A DNA stretch of 64,000 nt from Nitrospiraceae bacterium (GCA_919902505.1 CAKKRE010000028.1:10530-74529), one strand, 5' to 3'. Shown: positions 13,190 through 31,856, counted from the first letter of the stretch. The notes: generated by a model from the sequence alone, not told the origin. Numbers and translations: made by a program.

Positions 13190-13253
13190 TAGGTCAGCAG
13201 CGGAATAGTCGCATCCTTTAAATATGAGCGGATCGGAATAGGAATGTGAAGTT

Positions 13254-13442
13254 ATGGAACCGACGGATCATCCTTGTGAGCGGTGTGCTCGAACCGACGG
13301 GCGGCTCATTTTCGACCAGTGGAGCAAACTGCTGCTCTGCGAAAATTGCTTCGAGCGCATGAGGCGGCAGCAGGCATGGTCTCTTCTGCGTGAGGCTGAG
13401 ATGCCTGAGGGGACAAGCTGGGTCATCCCCAGGCATGAATGA
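13254..13442 (+). CDS. Small Cys4 zinc-finger protein (copy 1)
   Basis: CERC-x17-CENC; paralog immediately downstream. Confidence 0.65.
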   Translation: MEPTDHPCERCARTDGRLIFDQWSKLLLCENCFERMRRQQAWSLLREAEMPEGTSWVIPRHE

Positions 13443-15545: not shown

Positions 15546-16943
15546 ATGTTTAGACCTATTTCTGAAGCCGCTCTCCTCCGAAGGGCTCCCTATCGGTTGA
15601 TCGCGGCGGTGCTGTTGATTTTGGCCTTGGTCGTTTCCGTCATCCTGCTCTTCAGTTTGGAACAGGAGAAACTTCTCCTTCAGGGCGTTATTCAAGGCAA
15701 GACGGCTCCGACGGAGTTGTTTCCAGCGCTCTGGCAGTCGCGCCGCGACTTGACGCTGGTGGCGCTCCTCGTTTTTCTGGTGAGTGCGATCGGGATCACC
15801 GCGGTCATCACGTTTCTGCACTATGACAGCACCATACGAACCCTCGAAGAAGTGAAGGGGCTGGCGCGCAACATCCTCGAGAGCATTCCAACCGGTGTCC
15901 TGACGCTGAACCGCAGCGGCATGATTACGGCCGTCAATCCCTCGGCTGAGGCCGTGTTGAAACGTGCGTCGCTCGACTTGCTGGGCCACTCGTACGAATC
16001 CGTCTTTACGGAGGGCGATACCATCCGCGGGGCGCTTGATGCAGCGCTGCGGATCCATCGGCACATGAGTCAGAAAGACTTGCCCTATGAAAGCCGCGAT
16101 CGAACCCTGCACACCATCCGCGTCAGTACGGCCGAGTTGACCGGAGACGATGGACGGCCCGCCGGCGTCATTCTCCAGGCACAGGACGTCACGGAATGGC
16201 TGGCTCTTGAACGGAGAGTCCGGGTTGCGGAAAAACTGGCGGCTCTTCACACGCTATCCGCCGGGGTGGCGCACGAGTTGCGCAATCCGTTGAGCGCGAT
16301 CGATTTGAATTTGCATCTCCTTGAGGAAGAATTCAACGAGCAGGGGGGGGCGGCGAAGCAGGCCGCTCATTACCTCCGCGTGTTGAATGCCGAATGCCGC
16401 CGCCTGTCGGTGATTCTCGATAACTTCATGAAGTTCGCGCGACCCGGCTCCCTGGGTCTCCATGCGGTGGATTTGCCCGCCTTGATCGAACACATCGTGG
16501 CGCTCATGCGGTTCGAAGCGGAGGAGCGTAAGATTCAACTTGAGCCACGGGTGAGCAAGGACATGTCCCCGGTGCTGGGTGATGAGACGCAAATCAGCCA
16601 GGTCTTGGTGAACATCGTCGTCAACGCGTTCCATGCCATGCCGAATGGTGGGCGGTGCTGTATCGCTACGGAAGAACGCCCGGGGGAAGGGAAGCGCTGG
16701 GTAGAGATTGTCGTGAGCGACACGGGTATCGGTATTGAACAGGAAGACCTGCCGCGACTGTTTGAGCCCTTCTATACGACCAAGTCGGGTGGAACCGGGC
16801 TCGGCCTCGCGATCGCCTACCGGATTATGCAGGATCATGGCGGGACCATTCATGTGACAAGTGTGCCTGGAAACGGGACCCAGGTGGTCATGCAATTTCC
16901 TGTTGCTGTCGATCATCAGCAGGCGGTTGCGGTGGGATTATGA
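15546..16943 (+). CDS. Sensor histidine kinase (2 TM, PAS, HisKA, HATPase)
   Basis: H-box AHELRNPL, N-box NIVVNAFHAM, DTGIG, FEPFYTTK, GTGLGL; PAS starting at NILESIPTGV. Confidence 0.95.
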   Translation: MFRPISEAALLRRAPYRLIAAVLLILALVVSVILLFSLEQEKLLLQGVIQGKTAPTELFPALWQSRRDLTLVALLVFLVSAIGITAVITFLHYDSTIRTLEEVKGLARNILESIPTGVLTLNRSGMITAVNPSAEAVLKRASLDLLGHSYESVFTEGDTIRGALDAALRIHRHMSQKDLPYESRDRTLHTIRVSTAELTGDDGRPAGVILQAQDVTEWLALERRVRVAEKLAALHTLSAGVAHELRNPLSAIDLNLHLLEEEFNEQGGAAKQAAHYLRVLNAECRRLSVILDNFMKFARPGSLGLHAVDLPALIEHIVALMRFEAEERKIQLEPRVSKDMSPVLGDETQISQVLVNIVVNAFHAMPNGGRCCIATEERPGEGKRWVEIVVSDTGIGIEQEDLPRLFEPFYTTKSGGTGLGLAIAYRIMQDHGGTIHVTSVPGNGTQVVMQFPVAVDHQQAVAVGL

Positions 16944-18298
16944 CGCAAGGGGCGCATATTCTCGTCGTAGACGATGAGGTCAATATCCGGGGCGCGTTAG
17001 TGACGCTCCTTGAAAAGAAAGGCCACCATGTGCGCGGGGCAGGGACAGGAGAAGAAGCGCTGGAGGAGCTTGATGCCGCCGCGGCTGATCTGGTGATGAC
17101 CGACCTCAAGATGCCCGGGATCGGCGGAATGGAGTTCCTTCGTCGTCTGAAGGAGAAGTGGCCGGAGACGGAAGTCGTGGTCATGACGGCGTATGGATCG
17201 ATCGATACGGCAGTGGAGGCCATGCGATGCGGCGCGTACGACTATCTCACCAAACCCATCGATCGCGAGCGGTTTCCCATCGTGGTCGAGAAAGCGCTGG
17301 ATCGCCATGCGCTGGCGACGGAGAACAAACAGCTCAGGAGCCGCCTGGACACACGCACACGCTTCGATCAGATGGTCGGTGACAGCGAGCCGATGCGGCA
17401 CGTTTACAACATGGTTGAGATGGTGGCCGAGAGCGATGTCACGGTGTTACTGACGGGGGAAAGCGGTACCGGAAAGGAACTTGTCGCCCGGGCGATCCAT
17501 CATAGGAGTGCCCGGGCGAATGGACCGTTTGTCACGCTGAACTGCGGAGCGTTACCAGAGAACCTGTTTGAAAGTGAACTGTTCGGCTACGACAAAGGGG
17601 CGTTTACCGGAGCGATGACCACGAAGCTGGGGCGATTCGAACTCGCCCATGAGGGAACGCTGCTTCTGGATGAAGTCGGCGAACTATCGTTAAAATCGCA
17701 GGTGGATTTCCTTCGTGTCTTGGAGACGAAGGAATTCAGACGCCTGGGCGGAACCAAAGTGATCAAGGTTGATACCAGGATCATTGCCGCCACGAATCGC
17801 AATCTCGAAGCAGCCGTCAAGCAGGGTGACTTTCGCGAAGACCTCTACTATCGATTGAACGTCGTCCCGATCCACCTCCCGCCGCTGCGCGAGCGTGCGG
17901 AAGATATCCCGCTGCTCGTGAACCGGTTTCTGATCGCCTTCTCGACCCAGTATCGCCGCGAGCCAAAGGAGGTGTCACGCGACGCCATGCGGTTGCTCCG
18001 CCTCTATGCCTGGCCCGGGAATATTCGCCAGCTCCGAAATCTCATGGAGCGGCTGGTGGTGACCGTGAAGGATGCAACCATTCAATCGGAACACCTCCCC
18101 GGGGACATTCAGGCCAGCAAGGAGGATGCTCGCACGATGCTCGTGACGCTGGGGACGCCCCTGGAACAGATCGAACGGGATGTCATCCAACGGACATTGG
18201 CCGAAGTGACGAATCATCGAGAGAAAGCGGCCAAACTCCTCGGCATCAGCCTCCGTGCATTGCAGTATAAAATCAAGGAGTACGGCATCCGCGAATAA
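16940..18298 (+). CDS. Sigma-54-dependent response regulator (NtrC/AtoC family)
   Basis: REC domain (VVDDE, TDLKMP), GESGTGKE, ELFG..GAFTGA, C-terminal Fis-type HTH; 4-nt overlap with the kinase. Confidence 0.96.
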   Translation: MTQGAHILVVDDEVNIRGALVTLLEKKGHHVRGAGTGEEALEELDAAAADLVMTDLKMPGIGGMEFLRRLKEKWPETEVVVMTAYGSIDTAVEAMRCGAYDYLTKPIDRERFPIVVEKALDRHALATENKQLRSRLDTRTRFDQMVGDSEPMRHVYNMVEMVAESDVTVLLTGESGTGKELVARAIHHRSARANGPFVTLNCGALPENLFESELFGYDKGAFTGAMTTKLGRFELAHEGTLLLDEVGELSLKSQVDFLRVLETKEFRRLGGTKVIKVDTRIIAATNRNLEAAVKQGDFREDLYYRLNVVPIHLPPLRERAEDIPLLVNRFLIAFSTQYRREPKEVSRDAMRLLRLYAWPGNIRQLRNLMERLVVTVKDATIQSEHLPGDIQASKEDARTMLVTLGTPLEQIERDVIQRTLAEVTNHREKAAKLLGISLRALQYKIKEYGIRE

Positions 18299-18349
18299 CG
18301 TGTGCCTTGGCGCGACCATACAGCCAGAACCGAACGAGGTTCCATGCCG

Positions 18350-18545
18350 CTAGCCCGCATTATTCATGACGGTTCGTCACGAAATCGCTGAGGCGCGTCG
18401 CGAGACCGGCGCGCGGAGTCCGGAGGCCCCGACGCGTACTCGTGCAGTACGTGGAGGGTCCGATGGGCGAGCCCGCCGGCCGAAGGCTCGTCGCAGCAGC
18501 GGATCAGCGGTTGCAGTAGAAGCGCTCATGAATAATGCGGGCTAG
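18350..18545. mobile_element. MITE-like element with perfect 20-bp terminal inverted repeats
   Basis: ctagcccgcattattcatga (18350-18369) / tcatgaataatgcgggctag (18526-18545); CTAG at both ends; no transposase; inner hairpin cgtactcgtgcagtacg at 18435-18451. Confidence 0.8.
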
Positions 18546-18636
18546 ACGGTAGGCTCAGGCCGCCCACAGTGGGAGTCTGGACCGTGAAACGGCTCGCGCG
18601 CAGGATTGTCGGCCGGGTTTGATGTCACTTGTCCCT

Positions 18637-18695
18637 CTGCAAGAAATGCAGTCGTCGAATCGCTGAAAATCGGAATCTCGCTGCAGAATTTGCAG
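18637..18695. promoter_or_regulatory. Tandem palindromic enhancer sites CTGCA-N5-TGCAG
   Basis: ctgcaagaaatgcag (18637-18651) and ctgcagaatttgcag (18681-18695), 44 bp apart, about 110-155 bp upstream of the -24 element. Confidence 0.7.
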
Positions 18696-18790
18696 AGGCC
18701 TCTCCCCCACGTTTGTAGGAACACTCACGCCAATACTCTAAGTCCTCGATTTGTTGCGCATCGCGCGCATCGATCTCCTGACTTACTTTT

Positions 18791-18806
18791 TGGCATTCCC
18801 CCTGCA
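18791..18806 (+). promoter_or_regulatory. Sigma-54 (-24/-12) promoter
   Basis: TGGCATTCCCCCTGCA: GG-N10-GC; downstream of a sigma-54 activator gene and of the tandem palindromes. Confidence 0.7.
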
Positions 18807-18971
18807 ATAGCCTCGATCTGTCACGACCGGCCTCTCCATGATGTGCGCAGGATGACTACGCTGTCCGCGCATGGAGAACCGCCGTATCAGCTCGGCCCGC
18901 CCTTCTTTCGAATGGGTGGGTGGTGCAACCGCCTGTGGGCAGCTTGATCAGACTACGGAAAGGAACGGCAC

Positions 18972-19661
18972 ATGGAGTCAATGGGAAAGATGACGTTGGA
19001 ACGAGTAATCGATGTGGGCCCTGCCGGTTTTCATCCTCCATCGGCGATGGAACTGGGTGTCACACATCCTGATTCTGGATCCGGACTGCTCTATGGCCGC
19101 CATGCCCAGCAAGATGAGGTGATCGCAGAGTCCGCAAGGCAATTGTTCACCAGGAAGAATCCGACGATCTTCCCGGGGCCGTTGTACTTATGGGCCTGGC
19201 ATCCGGAATGGATCGCCAAGGGACACGCTCTGTTGAGGCTTGCCGCCGAGATCCCCGGAGTCATGATCATTCCGATGCCGGACTATCGACCTAAGTATCC
19301 AAAAATCGATCCAGAAGAGGTCATCAATCCGAATCATCCGAACCTGACGATTTGGGGAAACAAGATCGAGGTGGCTCTGTTCATCGGCATTCACTGTCAC
19401 TACGCCAACCTGGCGCTACGCATGGTGCGGGCGGGAACGAATTGCCTCACCGTGGCCTTCTGCCACGACATCCATGAAGACGCCATGCTCAGTGTGCAGG
19501 ATCTCGATGTGAAGCAGATGGATCACATCATTGATATTTTTCGAACGGTTCGGAAGGAACTCGGAATCGAGATGCCGAAAAACGGGCAGACCGTCCGTTT
19601 GACCGAGACGCAGATGCGCGCAAACCATGGGGTCGAGCGAGTGAATCCATGGCCAGCCTGA
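18972..19661 (+). CDS. CO_dh/ACDS-epsilon family protein, ForD/PorD-like subunit of five-subunit 2-oxoacid:ferredoxin oxidoreductase (copy 1)
   Basis: KNPTIFPGPL.LWAW, PDYRPKYPKI, INPNHPNLTI, GIHCH; paralog at 22185; family assignment is from recall, not a search. Confidence 0.7.
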   Translation: MESMGKMTLERVIDVGPAGFHPPSAMELGVTHPDSGSGLLYGRHAQQDEVIAESARQLFTRKNPTIFPGPLYLWAWHPEWIAKGHALLRLAAEIPGVMIIPMPDYRPKYPKIDPEEVINPNHPNLTIWGNKIEVALFIGIHCHYANLALRMVRAGTNCLTVAFCHDIHEDAMLSVQDLDVKQMDHIIDIFRTVRKELGIEMPKNGQTVRLTETQMRANHGVERVNPWPA

Positions 19662-19718
19662 TGGGGAGTGTCAGACTTAGGCGGAAAGGCAGCGAGCCAA
19701 CAGTGCAGGAATCCGAGC

Positions 19719-20009
19719 ATGCCGATGAACATTGAGAATCCTGAGAAACCACCCGCGCTTAGGCACTATGTACCAAGCGAGGAATGGATTGCGCGAATCA
19801 GTCGCCTGCAAGATACGCTGACCGTGTGCCCAGCGGATATTCCGGCACGGTGCGAATTAGCAACGCTCCTGGAAAAGCTGGAGCAACCGGAAGAGGCCTT
19901 GGTTCATTGGCAAGTCGTGCTTGCCTGCGATCCCAACAGTCTCAACGCGCGTGAAGGAGTGGCTCGCTGTCGTCTTCAGGCAGGCCGTCCGCTACAGTCC
20001 CGTACGTGA
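19719..20009 (+). CDS. Small TPR-like protein
   Basis: ARCELATLLEKLEQPEEALVHWQVVLACDPNSLNAREGVARC fits a TPR helix pair. Confidence 0.6.
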   Translation: MPMNIENPEKPPALRHYVPSEEWIARISRLQDTLTVCPADIPARCELATLLEKLEQPEEALVHWQVVLACDPNSLNAREGVARCRLQAGRPLQSRT

Positions 20010-20427
20010 GAGTGCGCATGCCTACTCTCTGGGGTTGTTTCGATCAAGTCGAAACAAGCCTTCCGGGGACTTGTTGGATCCTGCTCAGGTCTCTGTTGCT
20101 CGGGGCACGGCGATCCCATCCGGGCCTATCTCGGAGAGCAGGCCCTCATCGCGAGAGGACCGGAACGGGTAGAGCTTTCACGCGTGAAGGTGGGGGAATT
20201 TGTAGAAGTCACCTATCACCGGGGGCACGCTGGTTTTCATGGAGGCCGACACCATTGATGTCCGTCCCGACTAGGACGTTGCGCCCGAAGAAAGTGAGGA
20301 AGGCTAAGTTTGGGTTTGCGAGCGCCAAGACACATGGGAGGCCGGCACGATGAGACGACAAGGAAATCGAGGCCAACAGCGGTCTGGGGAACGCGACGTA
20401 CGCAGTCAAACAGGGAGACGTAAGCAT

Positions 20428-20706
20428 ATGGTGAAGGACAGGAACATCGTGGTTGTGCGGTATCCACGAGGTGCGACCGCTCTCATCTGGCTTGATCCGG
20501 CCAGTCGAGCGGTTGTAACCAGCCATGCCGGGTTGAGTGCTCTGCTTCACCAGGGAGTGAGGGACTGGGGCGGCCGCCTGGTATTTCCCGAAAGCGGCCA
20601 AGACTTCTTAAGGGCGGTTTATGATCGCCTCTTCATCAATGGCTGCGCCGTCCAATGGATGAGTGCGTCGGCTACCGTCGATGTTCAACGAAGTTACCGT
20701 GTCTAG
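20428..20706 (+). CDS. Hypothetical protein
   Basis: ATG after a GGGAG-like RBS; protein-like composition; in line with the operon. Confidence 0.55.
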   Translation: MVKDRNIVVVRYPRGATALIWLDPASRAVVTSHAGLSALLHQGVRDWGGRLVFPESGQDFLRAVYDRLFINGCAVQWMSASATVDVQRSYRV

Positions 20707-20722
20707 CGCGGATCAAGTCGAT

Positions 20723-22159
20723 ATGGCTCCCTTCACATCCTGGCTTCCTTCTCCTTCCACGCAAGACTTCGATCTGGTCGTCAAAGTTGCAGGATCGGGT
20801 GCGTCACCGCTCCATCAGGATTGGCTGCCTCTTGCGCATATCCTGATCGATCATGGATTGACGGTGATGGCCCAACATCAGCGTCTGAACGGCCACTCCG
20901 GCGACTTTGTGCTGCATCTTCGCATGGCCGTTCAACCATTCCATTCAATGGGACATGGATGCGACGTCCTCGTCCACGTGGGGGACCATGCGCCGGAATT
21001 TTGGCGCTTCGATCTCCAGCCAGGAAGCGTGCTTCTCTGGGAACCTCCAGTGGAACGACCGCTCTATCCCGTCGTTCCCGAGGGAGTGATTACGTACCCG
21101 CTGCCTCTTTCGGATCTCTCTGCCCCTTACGGCGAGGGGGTGTCCGGAAAGGGACTCGCCGCGCTGGGAGTTCTGTTGTGCTTGCTCGGATGCCCTCAGG
21201 AGACTCTTCATCGTGTCGCCCGGCTGTTGGCGGCGCCAAGATCGTTCGCCGCCGGAATTGAATTCGCCCACTATGAGATTGCGAAACGCGATGCGTATTG
21301 TCTTCCGCTTTCCGCAGACGACCGTGGCCAAGGTCGGATCCTGCTGGCACCGGAACAGGCGACGATGCTCGGGTTCGCCATCAGTTTCTGCGAATGCGGA
21401 ACGGGTTGTGATCGTGAGTTGCTCCAGTCACCGGCAGAGTGGATGCGCAGACACCTGGGGATTGCCGGGGGCATGGTATCGGTGCTGCAGAGCGAGAGGC
21501 ACCCCGATGTGCAAGTGTTTCGAGGACCTCAAGAAAAGGTGGTGGCCCTCTTGGGTGGGGATGACCGCGCGATAATGTCCTGCCTTGCCGGGTCGCGAAT
21601 CCTCGTGGCCGCCGACGTCATGGATGTCGTGAAGCTCTTGATTGAGGCCCACGATCTGATCCGAAAAGGACTGAGCGGGAGCGTCGTGGTCTTGGTCGAT
21701 GACGTCGTCGCCAGGCGCCATCAAAGCGTCGATCTCAGTGCCTTGATCGAGATGGTCCGGCCGAGAGGGGCTGATGTACGAGGTGCGATCATGACAGTTC
21801 AATCCGATTTGCCGGTTAGGCCGGCTGATCGGGACCAAGAGGCTGGGGCGGACGTGGGCTTTTTCTCCTGGGGGGCAGATCAAGGGGTAGTTCGAGACGC
21901 AGTGGGGCTCTGTCGACAATTTGGCCTCAACGTAGCTGGCTTGTATCCGAAAGTCGTTGTGCCGCTGCCGCAAGCGGAATTGGAGATGTTTGCCAGAACC
22001 GTCAAGCGCATGGTCCTGGTCGAATCGAGCCGGAGGCATGGGTATGCTGAGCGGATACGGGCGGCATGCTCGTTCCGGCCTACGGTACTCACATCGCTGC
22101 CCGGAAAGTCGCTCACACCGATGGATATTTTTCTTCGAGAAGGGTTGGGGGCCGTATGA
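20723..22159 (+). CDS. Degenerate KorA-type 2-oxoacid:ferredoxin oxidoreductase alpha(+gamma)-like protein
   Basis: Gamma-like N-terminus (LVVKVAGSG..GCDVLV) and PFOR-II C-terminus (ADVGFFSWGADQGVVRDAV..VVPLP..VLVE); YPITP, EDEIAA and TSGPG are absent. Confidence 0.7.
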   Translation: MAPFTSWLPSPSTQDFDLVVKVAGSGASPLHQDWLPLAHILIDHGLTVMAQHQRLNGHSGDFVLHLRMAVQPFHSMGHGCDVLVHVGDHAPEFWRFDLQPGSVLLWEPPVERPLYPVVPEGVITYPLPLSDLSAPYGEGVSGKGLAALGVLLCLLGCPQETLHRVARLLAAPRSFAAGIEFAHYEIAKRDAYCLPLSADDRGQGRILLAPEQATMLGFAISFCECGTGCDRELLQSPAEWMRRHLGIAGGMVSVLQSERHPDVQVFRGPQEKVVALLGGDDRAIMSCLAGSRILVAADVMDVVKLLIEAHDLIRKGLSGSVVVLVDDVVARRHQSVDLSALIEMVRPRGADVRGAIMTVQSDLPVRPADRDQEAGADVGFFSWGADQGVVRDAVGLCRQFGLNVAGLYPKVVVPLPQAELEMFARTVKRMVLVESSRRHGYAERIRAACSFRPTVLTSLPGKSLTPMDIFLREGLGAV

Positions 22160-22184
22160 ACCACGATGGAAAGGAGTTGAAGTG

Positions 22185-22763
22185 ATGGAACCGTACGAGA
22201 TGACCATTGGACCTGAAGGGTATCTGCCTCCGTCTGTTTCCGAAAGGGGCGTCGTTGGTCCCTCGAAGGGGGAGGGGCTTGTCATGGGAAAACGGGTGCC
22301 GGAGCAGCAGGCGATCGATGAAGTGGCGCGCCGACTACTTGCGGCCAAGAACCCCACGATCTTCCCGGGTCCGTTGGTTCTTTGGGCCTGGAATGAACAG
22401 GCGATGCGCGAGTCCAAAGTGGTCAAAGCGTTGGCGGAAGCGGTTCCGGCGAAGCTTATCCCGATGGCCGATTACCGGCCGAAGTATCCGAAGATCGAGG
22501 CGGAGCGGGAGATCAATCCGAACCATCCGAATCTGACGATCTGGAAAAACAAGATCGATGTCTGCTTATTTGTGGGTGTACATTGTCATCAATCCAATAT
22601 TGCGCTGAAGATCATTCGTGGCGGCACGGACTGCTACACCATCGCGCTCTGCACCTTTAGCGGCGACGATGAGGCGCACATCACGATCAGGGACTTGACC
22701 GTTGATACCATTCAGCGCATTGTGGATTCAGTCCATCGGCAGAAAAATTCACGGTCCTCATAG
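22185..22763 (+). CDS. CO_dh-family ForD/PorD-like protein (copy 2)
   Basis: AAGGAG RBS at 22171; GPEGYLPPS, KNPTIFPGPLVLWAW, DYRPKYPKI, INPNHPNLTIW, GVHCH. Confidence 0.72.
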   Translation: MEPYEMTIGPEGYLPPSVSERGVVGPSKGEGLVMGKRVPEQQAIDEVARRLLAAKNPTIFPGPLVLWAWNEQAMRESKVVKALAEAVPAKLIPMADYRPKYPKIEAEREINPNHPNLTIWKNKIDVCLFVGVHCHQSNIALKIIRGGTDCYTIALCTFSGDDEAHITIRDLTVDTIQRIVDSVHRQKNSRSS

Positions 22764-22815
22764 GGACGCTGGAGGATTGTCTCTGATGGCTACCTTCGTC
22801 AAGAGAGGATATGTC

Positions 22816-23745
22816 ATGCGATATGTACTTGCCGCAATTGTCGGGGTGATGGTTGCAATGGGCTCATCCGCCTGGGCCTATGAGGAAATCACGGTTGCAG
22901 AGGGTGGGACCCTGAGGGGCATCGTAACGCTCGAAGGGACTGTCCCCAAGCCGAAAGGGTACAACCTCACGACCTTGCCGGACCAATTCTATTGCGGGCG
23001 CATTTCGGACGGACAAGGCTGGCGCATTTTGCAGCCGTTCCAGGTCGGACCGGCGAGCGAGTTTCGCGACGTCGTGGTCTATCTGGAAGGCATCGACAAG
23101 GGCAAACCCTTCCCTGAAGGGGGCGTGCCGCACATCGAAGCGAAAGACTGCCTGTTCGAACCGTTCACCACCATCGTGCGGGACGATCAATCGGTGACGG
23201 TGGTCAACATGGACCCCGTCATGCACGACATTCAAGCCTATGAAACGTCGCATTTGGGCGCGCGCGTGTTGTTCAACGTGCCGCTGCCGATGAATCCGCA
23301 GCATCCGCGCAACCTCAAGGATCGCAGCGATGCCGGGATGTATCACAAACACATGGCCGGCCCGCCGATGAAGCAATTGGTGAATCTCAGCAAGGGCCGG
23401 CGGATTTTCGTCATGCAATGCGGCTTCCACGCGTACATGGAGAGCTGGGGGGTGGCCGTCACCAACCCGTACTTTGCCAAGACGGACGAGCAGGGCCGGT
23501 TCACCCTGACCGATGTGCCGGCGGGTACCTATAAGCTGGTCGTCTGGCACCCCTATGTCCGTACCGCGACCGAACAGACCGTCACGATCGGCCCGAAAGG
23601 GACGGTGGAGGCCCATGTCGTGGTCCCGGCCCCGATCGGGCGGCTCTATGCCAACGAGGTGATGGAGCATCCGTACAATCGCTACAACGTGCTCGAAGAA
23701 ACAAAGCGAGAAATCGATCCGATGATCCACAAGCAGGAGCATTGA
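22816..23745 (+). CDS. Exported protein with cupredoxin-like and carboxypeptidase-regulatory-like domains
   Basis: Signal peptide; MHDIQ and CGFHAYM; C-terminal TDEQGRFTLTDVPAGTYKLVVWHPY. Confidence 0.75.
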   Translation: MRYVLAAIVGVMVAMGSSAWAYEEITVAEGGTLRGIVTLEGTVPKPKGYNLTTLPDQFYCGRISDGQGWRILQPFQVGPASEFRDVVVYLEGIDKGKPFPEGGVPHIEAKDCLFEPFTTIVRDDQSVTVVNMDPVMHDIQAYETSHLGARVLFNVPLPMNPQHPRNLKDRSDAGMYHKHMAGPPMKQLVNLSKGRRIFVMQCGFHAYMESWGVAVTNPYFAKTDEQGRFTLTDVPAGTYKLVVWHPYVRTATEQTVTIGPKGTVEAHVVVPAPIGRLYANEVMEHPYNRYNVLEETKREIDPMIHKQEH

Positions 23746-24371
23746 AGCGGGAGTGAGAGGGTGTGAAGCGCCTAATACTATCTCGTGGAGCAGGATTGCT
23801 GATAAGCGATGCGTGTGTGGTGTAGGCGAGGATCTCGAGAGAGGGAGCTTGTCAAAACCAGAAACTGCGAATCGCCAGATCGATGGGTTAGCCATTCTGC
23901 TGCATTGAGCTTCCTCCATGCCGTCATTACACTGACCTTTTCTCCAGCGTCTGCATGCGGCTGAATCTGACATCTGAAATGTTGCCGGAACTGGCCCATC
24001 TAACGGTCGGAATCCTCGCCTTGTATCATCCAATCGGTAGTCTCTTGCAGGCCTATACCGGCAAGGCGATTGTGCCACTGGTGCCGTCCCCTTTTCCGTC
24101 ATGAAAAGAGCATGAGGGGGCCGGTTCGATTGGAGCCGGCATGGTCCCACGGGGGAACCTGAGTTTGCATGAAATGGTTGCATGGGTTCTGCTCTATGTC
24201 CGTTGTGCACGGTCGCTTTTCGGATAGCAGTTGATGTGTCACACCGTATGTTTTAAGGTTCCTGGAGGCTGTCAAGATTCTCCGGTTCACATCTCGAAGA
24301 CCAGGGGGGAGTGATAGAATGCATTCTGTGTCTGGTTGTGGAGGGGCCTCCTTGAGGTTCTTGCTGCAACG

Positions 24372-26399
24372 ATGACCGTTCTACTCGTCGGCCTACTGGC
24401 GATCTACATAGCCGGCGTCATCCTTCCTCCATGTTTTCCTGGGAAAGCGAGGATTCAGAACCTCGTCGCACATGGGCTTGCGGCGGCGGCAGGTTTCGTC
24501 GGTATCGTCCTCGGTGTTGCGGGCCTCCTCTCAACGGCGCCTCTGACCCTCTCGCTTGCTTCCAACATTCCCCATCTCAGCTTCGCAATCCGTCTGGACC
24601 CGCTGGCGGCGTTCTTCGTGCTGACTATCTCGCTGGTGGGGCTGGCCGCGTCGATCTATGCGTCCGGCTACGTCGTCGAATTCTCGGGCCGAGTATCGGT
24701 GGGATTGTTGGGCTCCCTCCTCAACGGGTTTTTGCTCTCCATGACCCTGGTGGTCCTGGCCGACAACGGGTTCTTCTTCCTGATCCTCTGGGAAGTCATG
24801 TCCCTGTTGTCCTATGTGCTGGTTGTGACGGAGCATGAGAAGCCCGGCGTCCGGGAGGCGGGGTTGTTCTATCTCATCATGACGCACGTCGGTACCGCGT
24901 TCATCATCCTCACGTTTTTGATCTTTTTCCAGGAAACCGGCTCATTTTCCTTCGAGGCGTTTCGCCACCCCGACCAGCAGCTTCCTGAGGGATTGCGATC
25001 GATCGCGTTTTTCACGGCCTTGATCGGATTCGGCGCGAAGGCCGGCATCGTTCCACTGCACGTGTGGCTCCCCTATGCGCATCCCGCCGCCCCGTCCCAC
25101 ATCTCGGCCCTAATGTCGGGGGTCATGATCAAGACCGCCATCTACGGGTTGATCCGGATGTACTTCGATTTCATGGGCGGGGAATTCCCCTGGTGGTGGG
25201 GCTTCACGTTGTTGGTCGCCGGCACGGTGTCGGCGCTCCTGGGTGTCATGTACGCCTTGATGGAACATGACCTGAAGAGCCTGCTCGCCTTTCACAGTGT
25301 GGAAAACATCGGCATCATTCTGCTGGGGATCGGCGCAGGCATGATCTTCCACACCTATGGCTTGCATGAACTGGCGGCGCTCGGATTACTGGCGGGCCTG
25401 TACCATACCATCAACCACGCGGCGTTTAAGGCGTTGCTGTTTCTGGGCGCCGGGGCGCTGCAGTTCTCCACCCATACGAGACACATCGAGGAGTACGGCG
25501 GCTTGCTCCGGCGCATGCCCTGGACGGGCGCCTTTTTTCTGATCGGCGCCGTCTCCATCGCCGCGCTTCCGCCCACCAATGGGTTCGTCAGTGAGTGGCT
25601 GGTCTTTCAGAGTTTGTTTCTCAGCTTCCAGCTGCCCACTCTGTTTCTCAAGTTGATGTTGCCGATTGCCGCCGCGATGTTGGCGTTGACGGGCGCGCTG
25701 GCGCTGGCGTGTTTTGCGAAGGCGTTCGGGATGTCGTTTCTGGCGCAGCCGCGCAGCGTCCATGCCCGCCATGCGACGGAAGTCCCCTGGTCGATGCGGG
25801 TTGGGATGGGCTTCTTGGCAGGGCTCTGCATGGTGCTGGGGCTGGCGCCCATGCTGGTCGTTCCGTTGTTGGATCGGGTCACGACTCCATTGACCGGTGC
25901 GGCCATCAGTTCACAGGTGCTGGCGCTCGACGGCTGGGTGGTGGCGCCGGTGACGGTGGAGTTTTCGAGCATCTCGACGCCGGTGCTCGCCATGCTCCTG
26001 GTCGGGGCGGGAGCGTTGGGGCTGCTGATCGCCCGACTCTGCGGGAAGGGGCTGCGCGCGCGCTATTACAAGACCTGGGGTTGCGGGCTGAATCTGACGC
26101 CTCGCATGGAATACACCGCGACCGGCTTCGCGCAACCGGTCAAGCAGGTCTTTGAAACCATCTACCAGCCGACGGTGAAGCTGGAGCAGGAGTTTCTGGA
26201 GCAATCGAAGTACTTCATCAAGCATCAGCGGTTCGAGTCGCACATCGAGCCGGTCTTCGAGAAGTACCTCTACCGGCCGGTGGTGGCATGGCTGTTGGCG
26301 GCAGCCGACCGGCTGCGCATCATTCAGGCCGGCAGTCTCCATCTGTATCTCACCTACATTTTTGTGACGCTGGTGCTGTTGTTGTTATGGGCGGGGTAG
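24372..26399 (+). CDS. hyfB: Hydrogenase-4 component B-like antiporter subunit (Ehr complex)
   Basis: Many TM helices; WEVMS, KAGIVPLHVWLPYAHPAAP, ENIGII, GGLLRRMP; alternative start at 24336. Confidence 0.9.
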   Translation: MTVLLVGLLAIYIAGVILPPCFPGKARIQNLVAHGLAAAAGFVGIVLGVAGLLSTAPLTLSLASNIPHLSFAIRLDPLAAFFVLTISLVGLAASIYASGYVVEFSGRVSVGLLGSLLNGFLLSMTLVVLADNGFFFLILWEVMSLLSYVLVVTEHEKPGVREAGLFYLIMTHVGTAFIILTFLIFFQETGSFSFEAFRHPDQQLPEGLRSIAFFTALIGFGAKAGIVPLHVWLPYAHPAAPSHISALMSGVMIKTAIYGLIRMYFDFMGGEFPWWWGFTLLVAGTVSALLGVMYALMEHDLKSLLAFHSVENIGIILLGIGAGMIFHTYGLHELAALGLLAGLYHTINHAAFKALLFLGAGALQFSTHTRHIEEYGGLLRRMPWTGAFFLIGAVSIAALPPTNGFVSEWLVFQSLFLSFQLPTLFLKLMLPIAAAMLALTGALALACFAKAFGMSFLAQPRSVHARHATEVPWSMRVGMGFLAGLCMVLGLAPMLVVPLLDRVTTPLTGAAISSQVLALDGWVVAPVTVEFSSISTPVLAMLLVGAGALGLLIARLCGKGLRARYYKTWGCGLNLTPRMEYTATGFAQPVKQVFETIYQPTVKLEQEFLEQSKYFIKHQRFESHIEPVFEKYLYRPVVAWLLAAADRLRIIQAGSLHLYLTYIFVTLVLLLLWAG

Positions 26400-26463
26400 G
26401 GCGAGGCAGCGGGCTGTGCGTAGGGGTTGTGCCTGGTCGTTCGATCACTGAGTGACGGGAGCT

Positions 26464-27420
26464 ATGCAGTCGATCATCCACATCGTGCTGGTCGTCGTTC
26501 AGCTTGCGCTGTTGTTGACCCTCTCTCCGTTTGTCGTCGGCCTCATCCGAAAGGTCAAAGCACGTCTACAGTGCCGCCGCGGGGCGAGTCTCTTTCAGCC
26601 CTACGCCGATCTGGCCAAGTTGTTCCGGAAGCAGCCCGTCATCTCTTCGACGACCTCCTGGATTTTTACCGCGGCGCCATACATTGTCTTTGCCTCGACC
26701 GTTGCGGCGGGACTGCTGATACCGGTGTTCGTCTCTCACACCCCGCTCAATTTCGCGGGGAACATCATTGCGCTCGTCTATCTGCTGGCGTTGGGAACGT
26801 TCTTCCTGATCCTGGCGGGGCTCGATGCAGGATCGGCGTTCGGGGGGATGGGCAGCAGCCGCGAGGCGATCGTCGCGACGCTGGCCGAGCCGGCCATGAT
26901 GCTGTCCATCCTTTCTATCGCGCTGACCGCCGGCTCCACGAATTTGAGCACCATCGTGCATCAGTCCGCGTTGATGGAAGGGGTCGTCGTGGCTCCGCCC
27001 GCCCATTTGATGGCGCTGGCCGCCTTGTTCATCGTGACGCTGGCGGAAACCGGTCGTGTCCCGGTGGACAATCCCGCCACGCACCTGGAATTGACGATGA
27101 TCCACGAGGCCATGCTGCTCGAGTATTCCGGCCGCTACCTGGCGTTGATGGAGTGGGCGGCCGGCATCAAGTTGCTGGTGTTCCTGACCTTGATCGTGAA
27201 TGTCTTTGCGCCCTGGGGTATCGCCACGAGCCTGGCGCCGTCAGCCATCGCCGTCGGTCTTCTGGTGTATCTCGGGAAAGTGGCTGCGCTGGCTTTTGTG
27301 ATCGGCGTGATCGAATCGATGTTCGCGAAGCTGCGATTGTTCCGGGTGCCGGAAATGCTGGGCGCGGCGTTCATCCTGTCGCTGCTCGCGCTGGTCTTCT
27401 TCTATACGCTGAAAGGGTAA
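26464..27420 (+). CDS. hyfC: HyfC/NuoH-like membrane subunit
   Basis: RKVKARLQCRRG..QPYADLAKL, GSSRE, ETGRVPVD, EYSG. Confidence 0.9.
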   Translation: MQSIIHIVLVVVQLALLLTLSPFVVGLIRKVKARLQCRRGASLFQPYADLAKLFRKQPVISSTTSWIFTAAPYIVFASTVAAGLLIPVFVSHTPLNFAGNIIALVYLLALGTFFLILAGLDAGSAFGGMGSSREAIVATLAEPAMMLSILSIALTAGSTNLSTIVHQSALMEGVVVAPPAHLMALAALFIVTLAETGRVPVDNPATHLELTMIHEAMLLEYSGRYLALMEWAAGIKLLVFLTLIVNVFAPWGIATSLAPSAIAVGLLVYLGKVAALAFVIGVIESMFAKLRLFRVPEMLGAAFILSLLALVFFYTLKG

Positions 27421-27424
27421 CGCG

Positions 27425-28090
27425 GTGTCGGCTTCCACCCAATTGGGCTCACAACTCGTCGATCTCTGCTCGGTCCTGCTGCTGCTCTGTTGTTTTGCCA
27501 TCGTGGCGCAGCGTCGATTGTCGGCCTGTGTGGATCTCTTTGCGCTGCAGTCCGCGTTTCTGGCGGCGACCGCCGCGCTCGTCGCGTTTCTGACCGGACA
27601 TAAGCACATTTATTTCGCGGCGGCCCTGACGATCGTCATCAAAGTGATCGTGCTGCCACGCATTCTGCGGAAGGTCATCGAGCGTCTGAATGTCTCCCGT
27701 GAGCTGGGGATGAATATCAATATTCCGGCGGGCCTGCTGATCTGCGGCGCGCTGGTGATCGTCGCCTTCTTTATCACGCAGCCCATCATTCCGCTCGGCT
27801 ACCTGCTGACGCGCGATTCTCTGGCCATTGCGCTGGCCATTATTTTGATCGGATTTTTCACCATGATCGCCCGCCAGAAGGCGATCACGCAGATGGTCGG
27901 CTTCCTGGTCATGGAGAACGGAGTGTTCCTGGGAGCCACGGCGGCCGCGTACGGCATGCCGCTGATCGTTGAATTGGGCGTCTTCTTCGATGTGTTGGTG
28001 GCCGGGTTGATCGTCGGCATTTACACGCATCGGCTGCAGGATACGTTCGATAGCGTGGACACCAGCACGCTGACGGTGCTGAAGGAATGA
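27425..28090 (+). CDS. hyfE: HyfE-like membrane subunit
   Basis: GFLVMENG, PLIVELGVFFD; position in the operon. Confidence 0.88.
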   Translation: MSASTQLGSQLVDLCSVLLLLCCFAIVAQRRLSACVDLFALQSAFLAATAALVAFLTGHKHIYFAAALTIVIKVIVLPRILRKVIERLNVSRELGMNINIPAGLLICGALVIVAFFITQPIIPLGYLLTRDSLAIALAIILIGFFTMIARQKAITQMVGFLVMENGVFLGATAAAYGMPLIVELGVFFDVLVAGLIVGIYTHRLQDTFDSVDTSTLTVLKE

Positions 28091-28127
28091 GGCGGTCGAT
28101 GACGCATGTCCGGCGAGTAGGTGCTGT

Positions 28128-29660: not shown

Positions 29661-29664
29661 CCGT

Positions 29665-31334: not shown

Positions 31335-31856
31335 ATGTTTCGAATCCTCAAAAAAAGTCTTCAGACCGGTGTCGTCACGGGGCAACATCCTGCCGGAGGC
31401 GCACCTTCGGAGCCGGTCAGCCAGGACGCCATCGAAAAGGCCAAGCCGTTCCGGCGCTCGATGACGATCCGTGAAGTCGATACGGGTTCCTGTAACGCCT
31501 GCGAGATGGAAATGAATGCGCTGGCCAATCCGGTCTACGACGTGGAGCGGTTCGGAGTCCATATTGCCGCATCGCCTCGCCATGCCGATGCCCTGGTCGT
31601 CACCGGGCCGGTGACCGTCAATATGGAACGAGCGCTGAAGGATGTGTACAAGGCAACGCCAGACCCCAAGATCGTCATCGCGGTGGGAGACTGTGCCGTG
31701 ACCTGCGGCATGTTCAAGGGAAGTTATGCGGTGACGGGTCCGGTGGATCGGCATATCCCCGTCGATGTGCGTATTCCTGGTTGCCCCCCGCGCCCGGCCG
31801 AAATCCTCGCGGTGCTAGCGAAGCTTCGCCAGGATGATCCTGACGCAGATACATGA
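31335..31856 (+). CDS. hyfI: HyfI/NuoB-like Fe-S small subunit
   Basis: TGSCNACE, SPRHADAL, GDCA, PGCPP; AAGGAGG RBS. Confidence 0.92.
   Translation: MFRILKKSLQTGVVTGQHPAGGAPSEPVSQDAIEKAKPFRRSMTIREVDTGSCNACEMEMNALANPVYDVERFGVHIAASPRHADALVVTGPVTVNMERALKDVYKATPDPKIVIAVGDCAVTCGMFKGSYAVTGPVDRHIPVDVRIPGCPPRPAEILAVLAKLRQDDPDADT

What the first reader, a model, noticed from the sequence alone, without database searches (positions are those of the whole stretch)
18791..23745. Candidate new system: sigma-54-controlled cassette of orphan and dead 2-oxoacid:ferredoxin oxidoreductase subunits
One co-oriented run holds ForD/PorD-like copy 1, a TPR protein, a hypothetical, a KorA-like protein with no catalytic core, ForD/PorD-like copy 2 and a putative blue-copper exported protein. 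There is no TPP-binding beta subunit and no ferredoxin, so it cannot be a working enzyme alone. Five-subunit POR/OGOR enzymes are the carboxylases of the reverse TCA cycle in Nitrospira and Aquificae. A signal-induced set of spare small subunits plus a pseudo-alpha could remodel, protect or inhibit those carboxylases, for example under oxygen or redox stress (inference).
Basis: partly seen in the sequence, partly recalled or inferred. Interest (0 to 1): 0.85.

Follow-up and report, generated by a model that had tools for sequence, protein, structure and literature searches.

The report
OFOR-derived accessory genes heading Nitrospira's Ehr operon
The genes are real, conserved and under selection, but they are not a stand-alone cassette: they form the front half of a sigma-54-controlled operon whose back half is the enigmatic hydrogenase-like 'Ehr' membrane complex of Nitrospira, and so may be that complex's missing soluble partner.

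Summary
Window 18791-23745 carries:
- a sigma-54 promoter;
- two PorD/ForD-type delta paralogs (PF02552);
- a TPR protein and small ORFs;
- a KorA-like protein whose TPP-contacting domain is unrecognisable;
- an exported protein with an invariant His/Cys/His/Met motif.

No beta subunit and no ferredoxin is encoded anywhere in the 64 kb.

The genes are not dead. dN/dS is 0.05-0.26, and the two delta paralogs are the most constrained genes of the locus.

In 18 of 21 informative Nitrospiraceae loci the run continues, with no sigma-54 promoter in between, into HyfB-HyfC-HyfE-HyfF-EhrL-EhrS. This is the 'Ehr' complex: no NiFe ligands, the small-subunit [4Fe-4S] ligands kept, no NuoI/HycF-type subunit. 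Its function is called unknown in the literature. An unrelated Nitrospirota MAG has two delta-type genes directly in front of Ehr with no alpha-like gene.

Best reading: an OFOR-derived, non-catalytic soluble module that works with Ehr, perhaps linking it to ferredoxin or to POR/OGOR. One paper saw the adjacency and misread the delta gene as CO dehydrogenase. I rate it a new variant of a known kind. All evidence is genomic, plus weak RNA data.

The parts
15546..16943 (+). PAS sensor histidine kinase with two N-terminal hydrophobic segments
   Evidence: Pfam PAS, HisKA and HATPase_c. It lies upstream of the cassette in all 19 cassette loci where both the regulator and delta copy 1 are held.
16940..18298 (+). 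NtrC-type response regulator and sigma-54 activator (receiver, AAA+ and HTH_8 domains)
   Evidence: Sigma54_activat E 1e-71, Response_reg, HTH_8. 77-94% identical across loci.
18638..18650 (.). Upstream activator site 1, palindrome TGCAAGAAATGCA
   Evidence: TGCA-N5-TGCA is found, usually twice, in 18 of 19 intergenic regions between the regulator and delta copy 1. Background over all fetched sequence is 0.14 per kb.
18682..18694 (.). Upstream activator site 2, palindrome TGCAGAATTTGCA
18791..18806 (+). Sigma-54 (-24/-12) promoter TGGCATTCCCCCTGCA
   Evidence: It is the only match to TGGCAYN5YTGCW in the window; 22 of 100 shuffles gave at least one match. GG-N10-GC elements of the same type occur between the regulator and delta copy 1 in 22 of 27 loci scanned; most of those without one lack the full intergenic region.
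18972..19661 (+). Delta-type OFOR subunit paralog 1 (PorD/ForD family, PF02552). The start codon could be 18972, 18981 or 18990.
   Evidence: PF02552 E 4e-35. 83-97% identical across Nitrospira. dN/dS 0.07. 51% identical to the canonical delta of locus L039.
19719..20009 (+). Small TPR protein of about 96 aa
   Evidence: TPR_17 E 9e-6. Conserved in position. dN/dS 0.23. Homologues sit next to OFOR-type genes in L034.
20018..20237 (+). Conserved small gene (about 92 aa, MPxxWG...), frameshifted in this window
   Evidence: tblastn matches lie in two reading frames. Contigs of related organisms carry extra G residues at 20101 and 20116.
20428..20706 (+). Conserved 92-aa protein of unknown family, overlapping the next gene
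   Evidence: No Pfam or NCBIfam hit. Present in all cassette loci that reach this part of the cassette. dN/dS 0.21.
20699..22159 (+). TPP-less KorA-like 'pseudo-alpha'. Domain III (gamma-like) and domain II are recognisable; domain I is degenerate and carries a near-invariant CxCxxxC motif plus C88.
   Evidence: AF2 pLDDT 82. Foldseek best hit is KorA 6n2n_A, TM 0.70. Sequence similarity is limited to domains III and II. hhalign against canonical alpha aligns only 64 columns of domain II. 166 homologues, those with an organism name nearly all Nitrospira or Nitrospirae. dN/dS 0.26.
22185..22763 (+). Delta-type OFOR subunit paralog 2 (PF02552)
   Evidence: E 2e-40. 82-95% identical across loci. 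dN/dS 0.05, the lowest in the locus.
22816..23745 (+). Exported protein: a split CarboxypepD_reg-like beta-sandwich with an insert of about 170 aa that carries an invariant H/C/H/M motif
   Evidence: Pfam CarboxypepD_reg. Invariant H137, C202, H205, M208, C60 and C112. The fold of the insert is not established.
24336..26399 (+). Ehr antiporter-like subunit (HyfB type)
   Evidence: Proton_antipo_M E 3e-50. It follows the cassette in 18 of 21 informative loci.
26452..27420 (+). Ehr NuoH/HyfC-like subunit
   Evidence: NADHdh E 5e-51.
27425..28090 (+). Ehr small membrane subunit, in the position HyfE occupies
   Evidence: No Pfam hit. Conserved position, 77-83% identity.
28128..29660 (+). Ehr antiporter-like subunit (HyfF type)
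   Evidence: Proton_antipo_M E 4e-57.
29665..31257 (+). EhrL, a fused NuoC/NuoD-like large subunit without NiFe ligands
   Evidence: Aligned to E. coli HycE, RVCGICGFAHS becomes RVSGDTSVGHS and the C-terminal DPCYSC becomes NLSYAG.
31335..31856 (+). EhrS, a NuoB/HycG-like small subunit that keeps the four Cys of the proximal [4Fe-4S] cluster
   Evidence: Alignment to MbhJ, HycG and NdhK shows SCNAC, GDCA and PGCPP conserved.

Best explanation
Window 18791-23745 is the promoter-proximal half of one sigma-54-dependent transcription unit, switched on by the adjacent PAS kinase and NtrC-type regulator. The distal half is the Nitrospira Ehr complex (24336-31856).

Shown:
- Gene identities.
- The promoter and activator sites, and their conservation.
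- Synteny with Ehr.
- Purifying selection.
- Loss of the NiFe ligands in EhrL, retention of the [4Fe-4S] ligands in EhrS, and the absence of any NuoI/HycF-type or ferredoxin gene.

Inferred:
- The two delta-type (PorD/ForD family) proteins, held on the TPP-less KorA-like scaffold, form a non-catalytic soluble module that docks on the cytoplasmic face of Ehr.
- This module replaces the missing electron-wire and partner subunits.
- It connects Ehr's remaining iron-sulfur cluster to a low-potential partner, either ferredoxin or the five-subunit POR/OGOR themselves. Ion-motive force and ferredoxin-level redox chemistry of the reverse TCA cycle would then be coupled under an as yet unknown signal.

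The exported His/Cys/His/Met protein is co-encoded and is probably a periplasmic metal (copper?) protein of the same unit. How it connects is unknown.
For: 1. Synteny. The order kinase, regulator, delta 1, TPR, small ORFs, pseudo-alpha, delta 2, exported protein, HyfB, HyfC, HyfE, HyfF, EhrL, EhrS recurs across Nitrospiraceae. Ehr follows in 18 of 21 informative loci, with gaps between the exported-protein gene and EhrA as short as 26-55 nt.
2. One promoter. The -24/-12 element and paired TGCA-N5-TGCA sites are conserved upstream of delta 1. No sigma-54-like promoter lies between the exported-protein gene and EhrA in 13 of 14 loci; the exception is a weak 8-of-11 match in L032, where a 2.9-kb insertion separates the genes. 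The window has no terminator-like or sigma-70-like site in 18250-24400.
3. Independent lineage. Locus L038 has two delta-type genes directly in front of an Ehr operon, with no alpha-like gene. One of the two groups with canonical deltas in the tree.
4. Ehr lacks what the module could supply. EhrL has no NiFe ligands. EhrS keeps its four cluster Cys. No NuoI/HycF-type or ferredoxin motif exists in the window.
5. Strong constraint. dN/dS is 0.05-0.07 for the deltas and 0.26 for the pseudo-alpha. All family-wide invariant residues of canonical deltas (H114, H133-C134-H135, C150, C156) are kept. The pseudo-alpha has near-invariant Cys residues: C88, C231, C233, C237.
6. RNA-derived contigs. A 4.75-kb contig spans delta 1 to the exported-protein gene. 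A 7.6-kb contig from a transcriptomic run joins a delta-type gene to the Ehr genes. In Ca. N. aciditolerans the NtrC-family regulator, three unannotated genes and hyfBCEF-hycE-mbhJ are all expressed (PMC13109103 supplement).
7. Literature. Ehr is present in about half of Nitrospirales genomes and its function is unknown (PMC12342949). Ehr complexes elsewhere are thought to need a soluble redox partner (PMC6349859).
Against: - There is no physical evidence that the cassette proteins bind Ehr.
- L003 and L007 carry the cassette without Ehr within 9 kb.
- Camejo et al. report comammox genomes that have the hyf-like operon but no adjacent 'CODH' gene (PMC5596200).
- Co-transcription is not proven. 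The window has a 590-nt gap between the exported-protein gene and EhrA. Depth in the compost RNA contigs is uniform over regulators, cassette and Ehr, so carried-over DNA is possible.
- No cofactor has been demonstrated in the deltas or the pseudo-alpha. The Cys/His sites are inferred from conservation only.
- In L034 the same families (TPR protein, exported protein, delta 2-like gene, homologous two-component system) sit with OFOR-type genes and no Ehr within 16 kb. That points toward OFOR rather than Ehr.
Confidence: 0.5

Rival explanations
1. The spare delta subunits and the pseudo-alpha act on the main five-subunit POR/OGOR (remodelling, protection or inhibition, for example under O2 or redox stress). 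Their adjacency to Ehr would then reflect a shared regulon only.
For: - Both deltas are full members of the PorD/ForD family and keep all invariant residues.
- In L034 a two-component system whose regulator is 64% identical to the window's lies upstream of a canonical delta-alpha operon that has its own -24/-12 element.
- Also in L034, a delta 2-type gene is paired with a degenerate beta-like gene (GDG motif lost) behind the same kind of activator sites.
- L003 has the cassette without adjacent Ehr.
Against: - Ehr follows the cassette in 18 of 21 informative loci.
- L038 has delta-delta-Ehr with no alpha- or beta-like gene.
- The pseudo-alpha is of the KorA (fused gamma-alpha) type. It aligns to five-subunit-type alpha only over 64 columns of domain II, so it is unlikely to slot in as an alpha replacement.
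- Nothing here tests binding to PorA/B or ForA/B.
Confidence: 0.2
2. Ehr with the cassette is an ion-translocating device for pH or inorganic-carbon homeostasis rather than a ferredoxin-linked redox enzyme. The OFOR-derived proteins would act as CoA/acyl-CoA or CO2-status sensing or regulatory subunits.
For: - In L038 the delta-delta-Ehr genes directly follow DabB-DabA, a pair known as an energy-coupled inorganic-carbon uptake system (established knowledge), and a P-II gene.
- A SatP/YaaH-type carboxylate channel gene lies between the exported-protein gene and Ehr in L002, and after the exported-protein gene in L003.
- In Ca. N. aciditolerans two unannotated genes upstream of hyfB have 4-5 times higher TPM at pH 3-4.
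- The best-conserved part of the pseudo-alpha is the gamma-like domain, which is the CoA-binding domain in OFORs (established knowledge). In L036 the protein is reduced to that domain plus the C-terminal tail.
Against: - EhrS keeps all four [4Fe-4S] ligands, which suggests redox chemistry.
- The hyf TPM values themselves are nearly equal at both pH values. The fold changes in that dataset are globally shifted upward.
- The Dab adjacency is seen in a single locus.
Confidence: 0.12
3. The PF02552 genes mark a carbon monoxide dehydrogenase that feeds a hydrogenase-4-like complex, giving energy from CO. This was suggested for Ca. N. nitrosa.
For: The Pfam family name, NCBI names such as 'carbon monoxide dehydrogenase beta subunit family protein', and the statement in PMC5596200.
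Against: - No catalytic CooS/CdhA-type subunit is encoded in the window.
- EhrL lacks the NiFe ligands.
- PF02552 proteins of this clade are the delta subunits of five-subunit OFORs (PMC10052474; operons).
Confidence: 0.02
4. The cassette is a decaying remnant of duplicated OFOR genes and has no function.
For: - The TPP-contacting domain of the KorA-like protein is unrecognisable.
- One small ORF is frameshifted in this window.
- In L007 the pseudo-alpha is split into two ORFs.
Against: - dN/dS is 0.05-0.26 for all six intact genes.
- The pseudo-alpha family has 166 members, those listed nearly all full length at about 480 aa.
- The two deltas are 82-97% identical across the family.
Confidence: 0.02

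Closest known systems
Delta subunits (PorD/ForD, CODH/ACS-epsilon-like, PF02552) of the five-subunit POR/OGOR of Hydrogenobacter, Aquifex, Nitrospira and Nitrospina
   Same: Same Pfam family. 42-53% identical to canonical deltas encoded in delta-alpha-beta-gamma-epsilon operons. All family-wide invariant His and Cys residues are kept.
   Different: They are not encoded with TPP-binding beta, gamma or ferredoxin-like epsilon subunits. They form two separate, old paralog clades and are encoded with Ehr. The function of canonical deltas is itself unknown, and no structure exists (PMC10052474; one search found no PDB relative).
KorA alpha subunit of two-subunit 2-oxoglutarate:ferredoxin oxidoreductase (Magnetococcus marinus, PDB 6n2n)
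   Same: The predicted fold matches over the full length (TM 0.70). There is clear sequence similarity in domain III (gamma-like, CoA-binding) and domain II.
   Different: Domain I (the PYR domain, which contacts TPP) is shortened and unrecognisable by Pfam, hmmsearch and hhalign. It carries a CxCxxxC motif instead. There is no KorB partner gene.
Ehr (energy-converting hydrogenase-related) complexes and the proposed FDH-Ehr assemblies; group 4f hydrogenases
   Same: A complex-I-like membrane module, with a large subunit lacking NiFe ligands and a small subunit carrying a [4Fe-4S] cluster. A soluble partner is needed and is encoded next to it (PMC6349859; PMC10284858).
   Different: The co-encoded soluble genes are OFOR-derived, non-catalytic proteins, not a formate dehydrogenase with NuoE/F-like subunits. 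No NuoI/HycF-like subunit is present.
E. coli hyf/hyc formate hydrogenlyase operons
   Same: A group-4-type membrane complex transcribed from a sigma-54 promoter, with soluble partner genes in the same unit (established knowledge). EhrL's closest solved relative is HycE, E 7e-81.
   Different: The activator is a two-component NtrC-type regulator, not a formate-sensing FhlA/HyfR. There is no NiFe site, no FdhF and no HycB/HycF.
ACDS epsilon subunit CdhB of methanogens
   Same: Shares the Pfam family PF02552. It is a small accessory subunit bound to a large redox enzyme.
   Different: It is too distant to be found by phmmer. No CdhA partner is encoded here.

Membership tests
Five-subunit OFOR delta subunit (PorD/ForD, PF02552) | Matches PF02552 above the gathering score | tested here: met
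   121.5 and 138.7 bits against a cut-off of 21.
Five-subunit OFOR delta subunit (PorD/ForD, PF02552) | Keeps the residues invariant in canonical deltas | tested here: met
   H114, H133-C134-H135, C150, C156 and about 35 other positions are conserved in at least 48 of 50 sequences, a set that includes canonical operon deltas.
Five-subunit OFOR delta subunit (PorD/ForD, PF02552) | Encoded in a delta-alpha-beta-gamma-epsilon operon with a TPP-binding beta and a ferredoxin-like epsilon | tested here: not met
   No alpha, beta, gamma or epsilon homologue and no ferredoxin motif in the 64 kb. Canonical operons for comparison.
Five-subunit OFOR delta subunit (PorD/ForD, PF02552) | Co-purifies with POR/OGOR activity | not testable with these tools
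   Needs biochemistry.
OFOR alpha subunit (KorA type) | Overall three-domain fold (III-I-II) | tested here: met
   AF2 pLDDT 82. Foldseek hit 6n2n_A, E 1e-29, TM 0.70.
OFOR alpha subunit (KorA type) | Recognisable PYR/TPP-contacting domain I (PF01855 POR_N) | tested here: not met
   - No POR_N hit at E 0.1 or better.
- None of the 120 listed homologues carries PF01855 in the precomputed Pfam domains.
- The profile search aligns only domains III and II.
- hhalign against canonical alpha aligns only domain II.
OFOR alpha subunit (KorA type) | Reaches the NCBIfam OAFO_sf cut-off | tested here: not met
   56.5 bits against 482.75.
OFOR alpha subunit (KorA type) | Adjacent TPP-binding beta partner | tested here: not met
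Ehr complex (Ech-hydrogenase-related, without NiFe) | Large subunit lacks both CxxC NiFe motifs | tested here: met
   Alignment to HycE.
Ehr complex (Ech-hydrogenase-related, without NiFe) | NuoB-like small subunit plus antiporter-like and NuoH-like membrane subunits | tested here: met
Ehr complex (Ech-hydrogenase-related, without NiFe) | The cassette proteins are physical subunits of the complex | not testable with these tools
   Only linkage is available: 18 of 21 loci and delta-delta-Ehr in L038.
Sigma-54 / bacterial enhancer-binding-protein regulated operon | GG-N10-GC promoter, upstream palindromic activator sites and an adjacent activator gene | tested here: met
Sigma-54 / bacterial enhancer-binding-protein regulated operon | Transcription depends on RpoN and on the regulator | not testable with these tools
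   Needs genetics or in vitro transcription.
Type-1 (blue) copper protein | His...Cys-x2-His-x2-Met ligand set | tested here: met
   H137, C202, H205 and M208 are invariant in 19 sequences.
Type-1 (blue) copper protein | Cupredoxin fold | tested here: inconclusive
   - No cupredoxin family in Pfam.
- No cupredoxin in the profile search against PDB.
- The single-sequence model was unusable, pLDDT 33.
Ni-CODH/ACS | Catalytic CooS/CdhA subunit present | tested here: not met
   None among the ORFs scanned.

The most novel reading that the evidence does not exclude
The two delta-type proteins and the TPP-less alpha scaffold are the missing electron input/output module of Ehr. That would make Ehr an inducible enzyme, coupled to ion-motive force, that reduces ferredoxin or is wired directly to POR/OGOR. 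It would be a second route, besides the hypothesised 2M-type complex I, by which aerobic nitrite oxidisers lift electrons to the potential needed by the reverse TCA cycle. It would also give the first functional assignment for the PorD/ForD delta family.
Probability: 0.2. Interest if true: 0.85.

Novelty: new variant of a known kind. Interest (0 to 1): 0.6.

Why it matters
Two open questions in Nitrospira physiology meet at this locus.
- What does the widespread Ehr complex do? Recent comparative genomics calls its function unknown.
- How do aerobic reverse-TCA autotrophs obtain reduced low-potential ferredoxin?

A third question is the role of the delta subunit that defines the five-subunit (reportedly O2-tolerant) POR/OGOR. 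That is also unknown.

The finding is that Ehr is co-encoded, behind one sigma-54 promoter, with highly constrained delta paralogs and an OFOR-derived scaffold. This gives a concrete, testable partner for Ehr. It also corrects an existing misannotation of these genes as 'CO dehydrogenase'.

If the link is only regulatory, the locus still defines a conserved two-component/sigma-54 regulon tied to carbon-fixation enzymes.

Tried and rejected
- Exact-sequence look-ups of the window's delta 1 and pseudo-alpha found no record.
- The strict sigma-54 consensus TGGCACN5TTGCW with one mismatch missed the promoter. A relaxed pattern and cross-locus conservation were needed.
- phmmer of delta 2 against PDB found nothing, so there is no solved relative.
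- The search of 50%-identity cluster representatives gave 115 clusters, mostly fragments. The cluster look-up added almost no names, so the tree rests on loci whose context I could read.
Profile searches found only the CarboxypepD_reg part.
- Rfam found nothing in 18000-24500.
- I could not read model coordinates, so I could not check whether C88, C231, C233 and C237 of the pseudo-alpha cluster in space.
- The acid 'upregulation' reported for hyfBCEF in PMC13109103 was not taken at face value. The TPM values are nearly equal at both pH values, and the fold changes in that table are globally shifted.
- Rejected readings: CO dehydrogenase (no catalytic subunit) and gene decay (dN/dS).

Full report
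**What is in the window**

On the + strand, 15546-31856 holds a co-oriented run of genes.
- A PAS histidine kinase (15546-16943).
- An NtrC-type sigma-54 activator (16940-18298; Sigma54_activat E 1e-71).
- Six genes of a complex-I/hydrogenase-4-like membrane complex (24336-31856).

The cassette contains the following.
- A PF02552 protein at 18972-19661 (E 4e-35).
- A small TPR protein at 19719-20009.
- A conserved 92-aa ORF at 20428-20706.
- A KorA-like protein at 20699-22159.
- A second PF02552 protein at 22185-22763 (E 2e-40).
- An exported protein at 22816-23745.

Between the TPR gene and the 92-aa ORF lies a second conserved small gene. In this window it is frameshifted at 20018-20237.

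No OFOR alpha, beta, gamma or epsilon homologue occurs anywhere in the 64 kb, and no CxxCxxCxxxCP ferredoxin motif occurs in any frame. The rest of the window is housekeeping: phosphofructokinase, pyruvate kinase, peptidases, LeuRS and the like.

**The two small subunits**

PF02552 is named after the CODH/ACS epsilon subunit. It is also the family of the delta subunit that defines five-subunit POR/OGOR. The function of that subunit is unknown, and no structure exists (PMC10052474).

I found canonical delta-alpha-beta-gamma-epsilon operons in three loci (L039, L040, L041).
- The window's two copies are 51-53% identical to the L039 delta and about 50% identical to each other.
- In a neighbour-joining tree they form two separate, old clades beside the canonical deltas.
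- About 40 positions are conserved in at least 48 of 50 family members, including H114, H133-C134-H135, C150 and C156. Both copies keep all of them.

They are full members of the delta family by sequence, but not by operon context.

**The KorA-like protein**
- It has 166 homologues. Those listed are nearly all about 480 aa long and 47-85% identical, and those with an organism name are almost all Nitrospira or Nitrospirae.
- An AF2 model built on 87 sequences has pLDDT 82. Its best structural match is KorA of Magnetococcus OGOR, over the full length (6n2n_A, E 1e-29, TM 0.70).
- Sequence similarity is limited to domain III (gamma-like) and domain II (E 2e-36 overall).
- Domain I, the PYR domain that contacts TPP, is not recognised by Pfam.
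- hhalign against canonical five-subunit alpha aligns only 64 columns, all in domain II.
- Where KorA has its YPITP-type segment, this family has a near-invariant CxCxxxC (C231, C233, C237). A fourth near-invariant Cys, C88, lies in the gamma-like domain. That these four bind a metal or an iron-sulfur cluster is inference. I could not read the model's coordinates.

**Not dead**

I computed Nei-Gojobori dN/dS over orthologue pairs with dS below 1.5.

| Gene | dN/dS |
|---|---|
| Delta 1 | 0.07 |
| Delta 2 | 0.05 |
| Exported protein | 0.15 |
| 92-aa ORF | 0.21 |
| TPR protein | 0.23 |
| Pseudo-alpha | 0.26 |
| Ehr subunits | 0.06-0.12 |

The deltas are 82-97% identical across the family. That makes them more conserved than the regulator (77-94%) or the Ehr subunits.

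**Sigma-54 control**
It is the only match of its type in the window, although 22 of 100 shuffles also gave at least one match.
- Elements of the same type, YGGCAY-N5-NTGCA, lie between the regulator and delta 1 in 22 of 27 loci scanned. Most of those without one lack the full intergenic region.
- About 100-150 nt upstream, two TGCA-N5-TGCA palindromes occur (18638-18650 and 18682-18694). They are found in 18 of 19 loci, against a background of 0.14 per kb. These are typical activator sites.
- No sigma-70-like promoter or intrinsic terminator is predicted in 18250-24400.

**The boundary is wrong: the unit continues into Ehr**

A scan of one genome per species found the pseudo-alpha in 29 species representatives, all Nitrospira, Nitrospiraceae or Nitrospirae.
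- In these loci and in further contigs the order is kinase, regulator, delta 1, TPR, small ORFs, pseudo-alpha, delta 2, exported protein, HyfB, HyfC, HyfE, HyfF, EhrL, EhrS.
- Of 21 loci with enough downstream sequence, 18 continue into Ehr.
- Gaps between the exported-protein gene and EhrA range from 26 to about 900 nt. A sigma-54-like element lies in that gap in only 1 of 14 loci, a weak match in L032, where a 2.9-kb insertion separates the genes.

The downstream complex matches the 'Ehr' of the Nitrospira literature.
- EhrL aligns best to E. coli HycE (E 7e-81). It has RVSGDTSVGHS where HycE has RVCGICGFAHS, and NLSYAG where HycE has DPCYSC, so both NiFe motifs are gone.
- EhrS keeps the four Cys of the proximal [4Fe-4S] cluster.
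- There is no NuoI/HycF-type subunit.
- Papers describe this complex as present in about half of Nitrospirales genomes, related to group 4f hydrogenases, and of unknown function (PMC12342949, PMC10284858, PMC12542776).

**Independent support and variants**
- L038, a Nitrospirae MAG, has CopC, CopD, DabB, DabA, P-II, delta (211 aa), delta (245 aa) and then the Ehr operon, with no alpha-like gene. The 245-aa copy groups with canonical deltas.
- L036 has one delta. Its pseudo-alpha is reduced to the gamma-like domain plus the invariant C-terminal tail.
- L002 has a SatP/YaaH-type channel gene between the exported-protein gene and Ehr. L003 has one after the exported-protein gene.

Exceptions:
- L003 has the cassette but no Ehr within 9 kb.
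- L007 lacks the regulators, the exported-protein gene and Ehr, and its pseudo-alpha is split in two.
- L034, a low-GC Nitrospirae genome, points the other way. Its regulator is 64% identical to the window's and precedes a canonical delta-alpha operon that has its own -24/-12 element. A TPR gene, a degenerate beta-like gene (GDG motif lost) and a delta 2-like gene sit behind the same kind of activator sites. No Ehr lies within the 16 kb held.

**Expression**
- In compost libraries labelled as transcriptomic, one 4.75-kb contig of a close relative spans 18551-22989, and other contigs cover Ehr. Depth is uniform, so carried-over DNA cannot be excluded.
- In four other RNA-seq runs, homologues of delta 1, delta 2, the exported protein and the Ehr genes are covered. 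One 7.6-kb contig (depth 85) joins a delta-type gene directly to EhrA through HyfF.
- In the supplement of PMC13109103 (Ca. N. aciditolerans), the NtrC-family regulator, three unannotated genes and hyfBCEF-hycE-mbhJ are expressed at TPM 5-130. The hyf TPM values barely differ between pH 3-4 and pH 6-7. Two of the unannotated genes are 4-5 times higher in acid.

**Prior notice**

Camejo et al. (PMC5596200) noted that in Ca. [quoted passage not shown] That reading takes the PF02552 family name literally. No catalytic CODH subunit is present here, and EhrL has no NiFe site. The same paper says two comammox genomes lack that gene at this position. This is a caveat for obligatory coupling.

I found no paper that identifies these genes as OFOR delta or alpha derivatives, or that proposes them as Ehr partners. 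The literature search covers open-access papers only.

**Mechanism**

Shown:
- One conserved sigma-54 regulon and gene order.
- Strong constraint on the genes.
- An Ehr with a retained iron-sulfur cluster but no catalytic site and no electron-wire subunit.
- Delta-type genes in front of Ehr in two independent gene arrangements.

Inferred: the deltas, on the TPP-less alpha scaffold, form a non-catalytic soluble module of Ehr. The module links Ehr to ferredoxin or to POR/OGOR. I give this confidence 0.5 for 'works with Ehr', and about 0.2 for the specific ferredoxin or OFOR-reductase reading.

Other readings:
It is not exclusive of the main model, because an adaptor could bridge both.
- An ion or inorganic-carbon homeostasis role with sensing subunits is a further rival (0.12).
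- The CO dehydrogenase and gene-decay readings are rejected.

**The exported protein**

It has a signal-like N-terminus and invariant H137, C202, H205, M208, C60 and C112. The C-x2-H-x2-M spacing matches type-1 copper sites such as that of amicyanin (from memory). No tool recognised a cupredoxin fold. The copper assignment therefore stays a motif-level lead.

**Verdict**

The finding is real and conserved. It is a new variant of a known kind: an Ehr complex with an OFOR-derived accessory module under two-component/sigma-54 control. Interest is moderate to high, because it makes the function of Ehr and of the delta subunits testable. All evidence is comparative.

Noticed in passing
window 18350-18545: A MITE-like insertion of about 196 bp with perfect 20-bp terminal inverted repeats (CTAGCCCGCATTATTCATGA). 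It lies between the regulator gene and the activator sites. Related contigs lack it (joint 18350 to 18551), and many unrelated contigs in RNA and DNA runs share it (depth 135-1170 against roughly 10-150 in the flanking bins).
   Followed up: partly
window 20018-20237: A small gene (about 92 aa, MPxxWG...) that is conserved between the TPR gene and the 92-aa ORF in most loci is frameshifted here. Related contigs carry extra G residues at 20101 and 20116. It is either a pseudogene or an assembly error in this MAG.
   Followed up: partly
L038 1-17276: Gene order CopC, CopD, DabB (870 aa), DabA (1047 aa), P-II, delta, delta, then the Ehr operon. An inorganic-carbon pump and copper-handling genes sit directly upstream of a delta-delta-Ehr unit that has no alpha-like gene.
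   Followed up: partly
L034 3300-16630: - A homologous kinase and sigma-54 regulator precede a canonical delta-alpha OFOR operon that has its own -24/-12 element at 15085.
- Elsewhere in the locus a TPR gene, a degenerate beta-like gene (GDG motif lost) and a delta 2-like gene form a second sigma-54 unit.
- A homologue of the exported protein lies on the opposite strand.
   Followed up: partly
L002 13192-13830; L003 13505-14143: A GPR1/FUN34/YaaH (SatP-like acetate/succinate channel) gene follows the exported-protein gene. In L002 it lies between that gene and Ehr.
   Followed up: no
L036 7374-7970: In this variant locus the pseudo-alpha is reduced to 198 aa: the gamma-like domain plus the invariant C-terminal LTPxDxxLREGLG tail. 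Only one delta gene is present.
   Followed up: partly
L007 9944-11458: The pseudo-alpha is split into two ORFs (181 and 313 aa) in a locus that also lacks the regulators, the exported-protein gene and Ehr. This is either decay or long-read indel errors.
   Followed up: no
window 13054-13367: A TGCA-N5-TGCA palindrome at 13054 and a small Cys-rich ORF at 13251-13367. Homologues of the ORF recur upstream of the kinase in several loci, and between the regulator and the TPR gene in L036.
   Followed up: no
proteins P0377, P0398, P0389, P0429: Delta-type domains occur fused to the C-terminus of much longer proteins (347-1117 aa). One of them is annotated as PstS in Thermodesulfatator indicus.
   Followed up: no
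window 31993-33225: A BBP2/OmpL-like beta-barrel porin gene directly follows EhrS. In L002 the gene after EhrS is ThiS-like instead.
   Followed up: no
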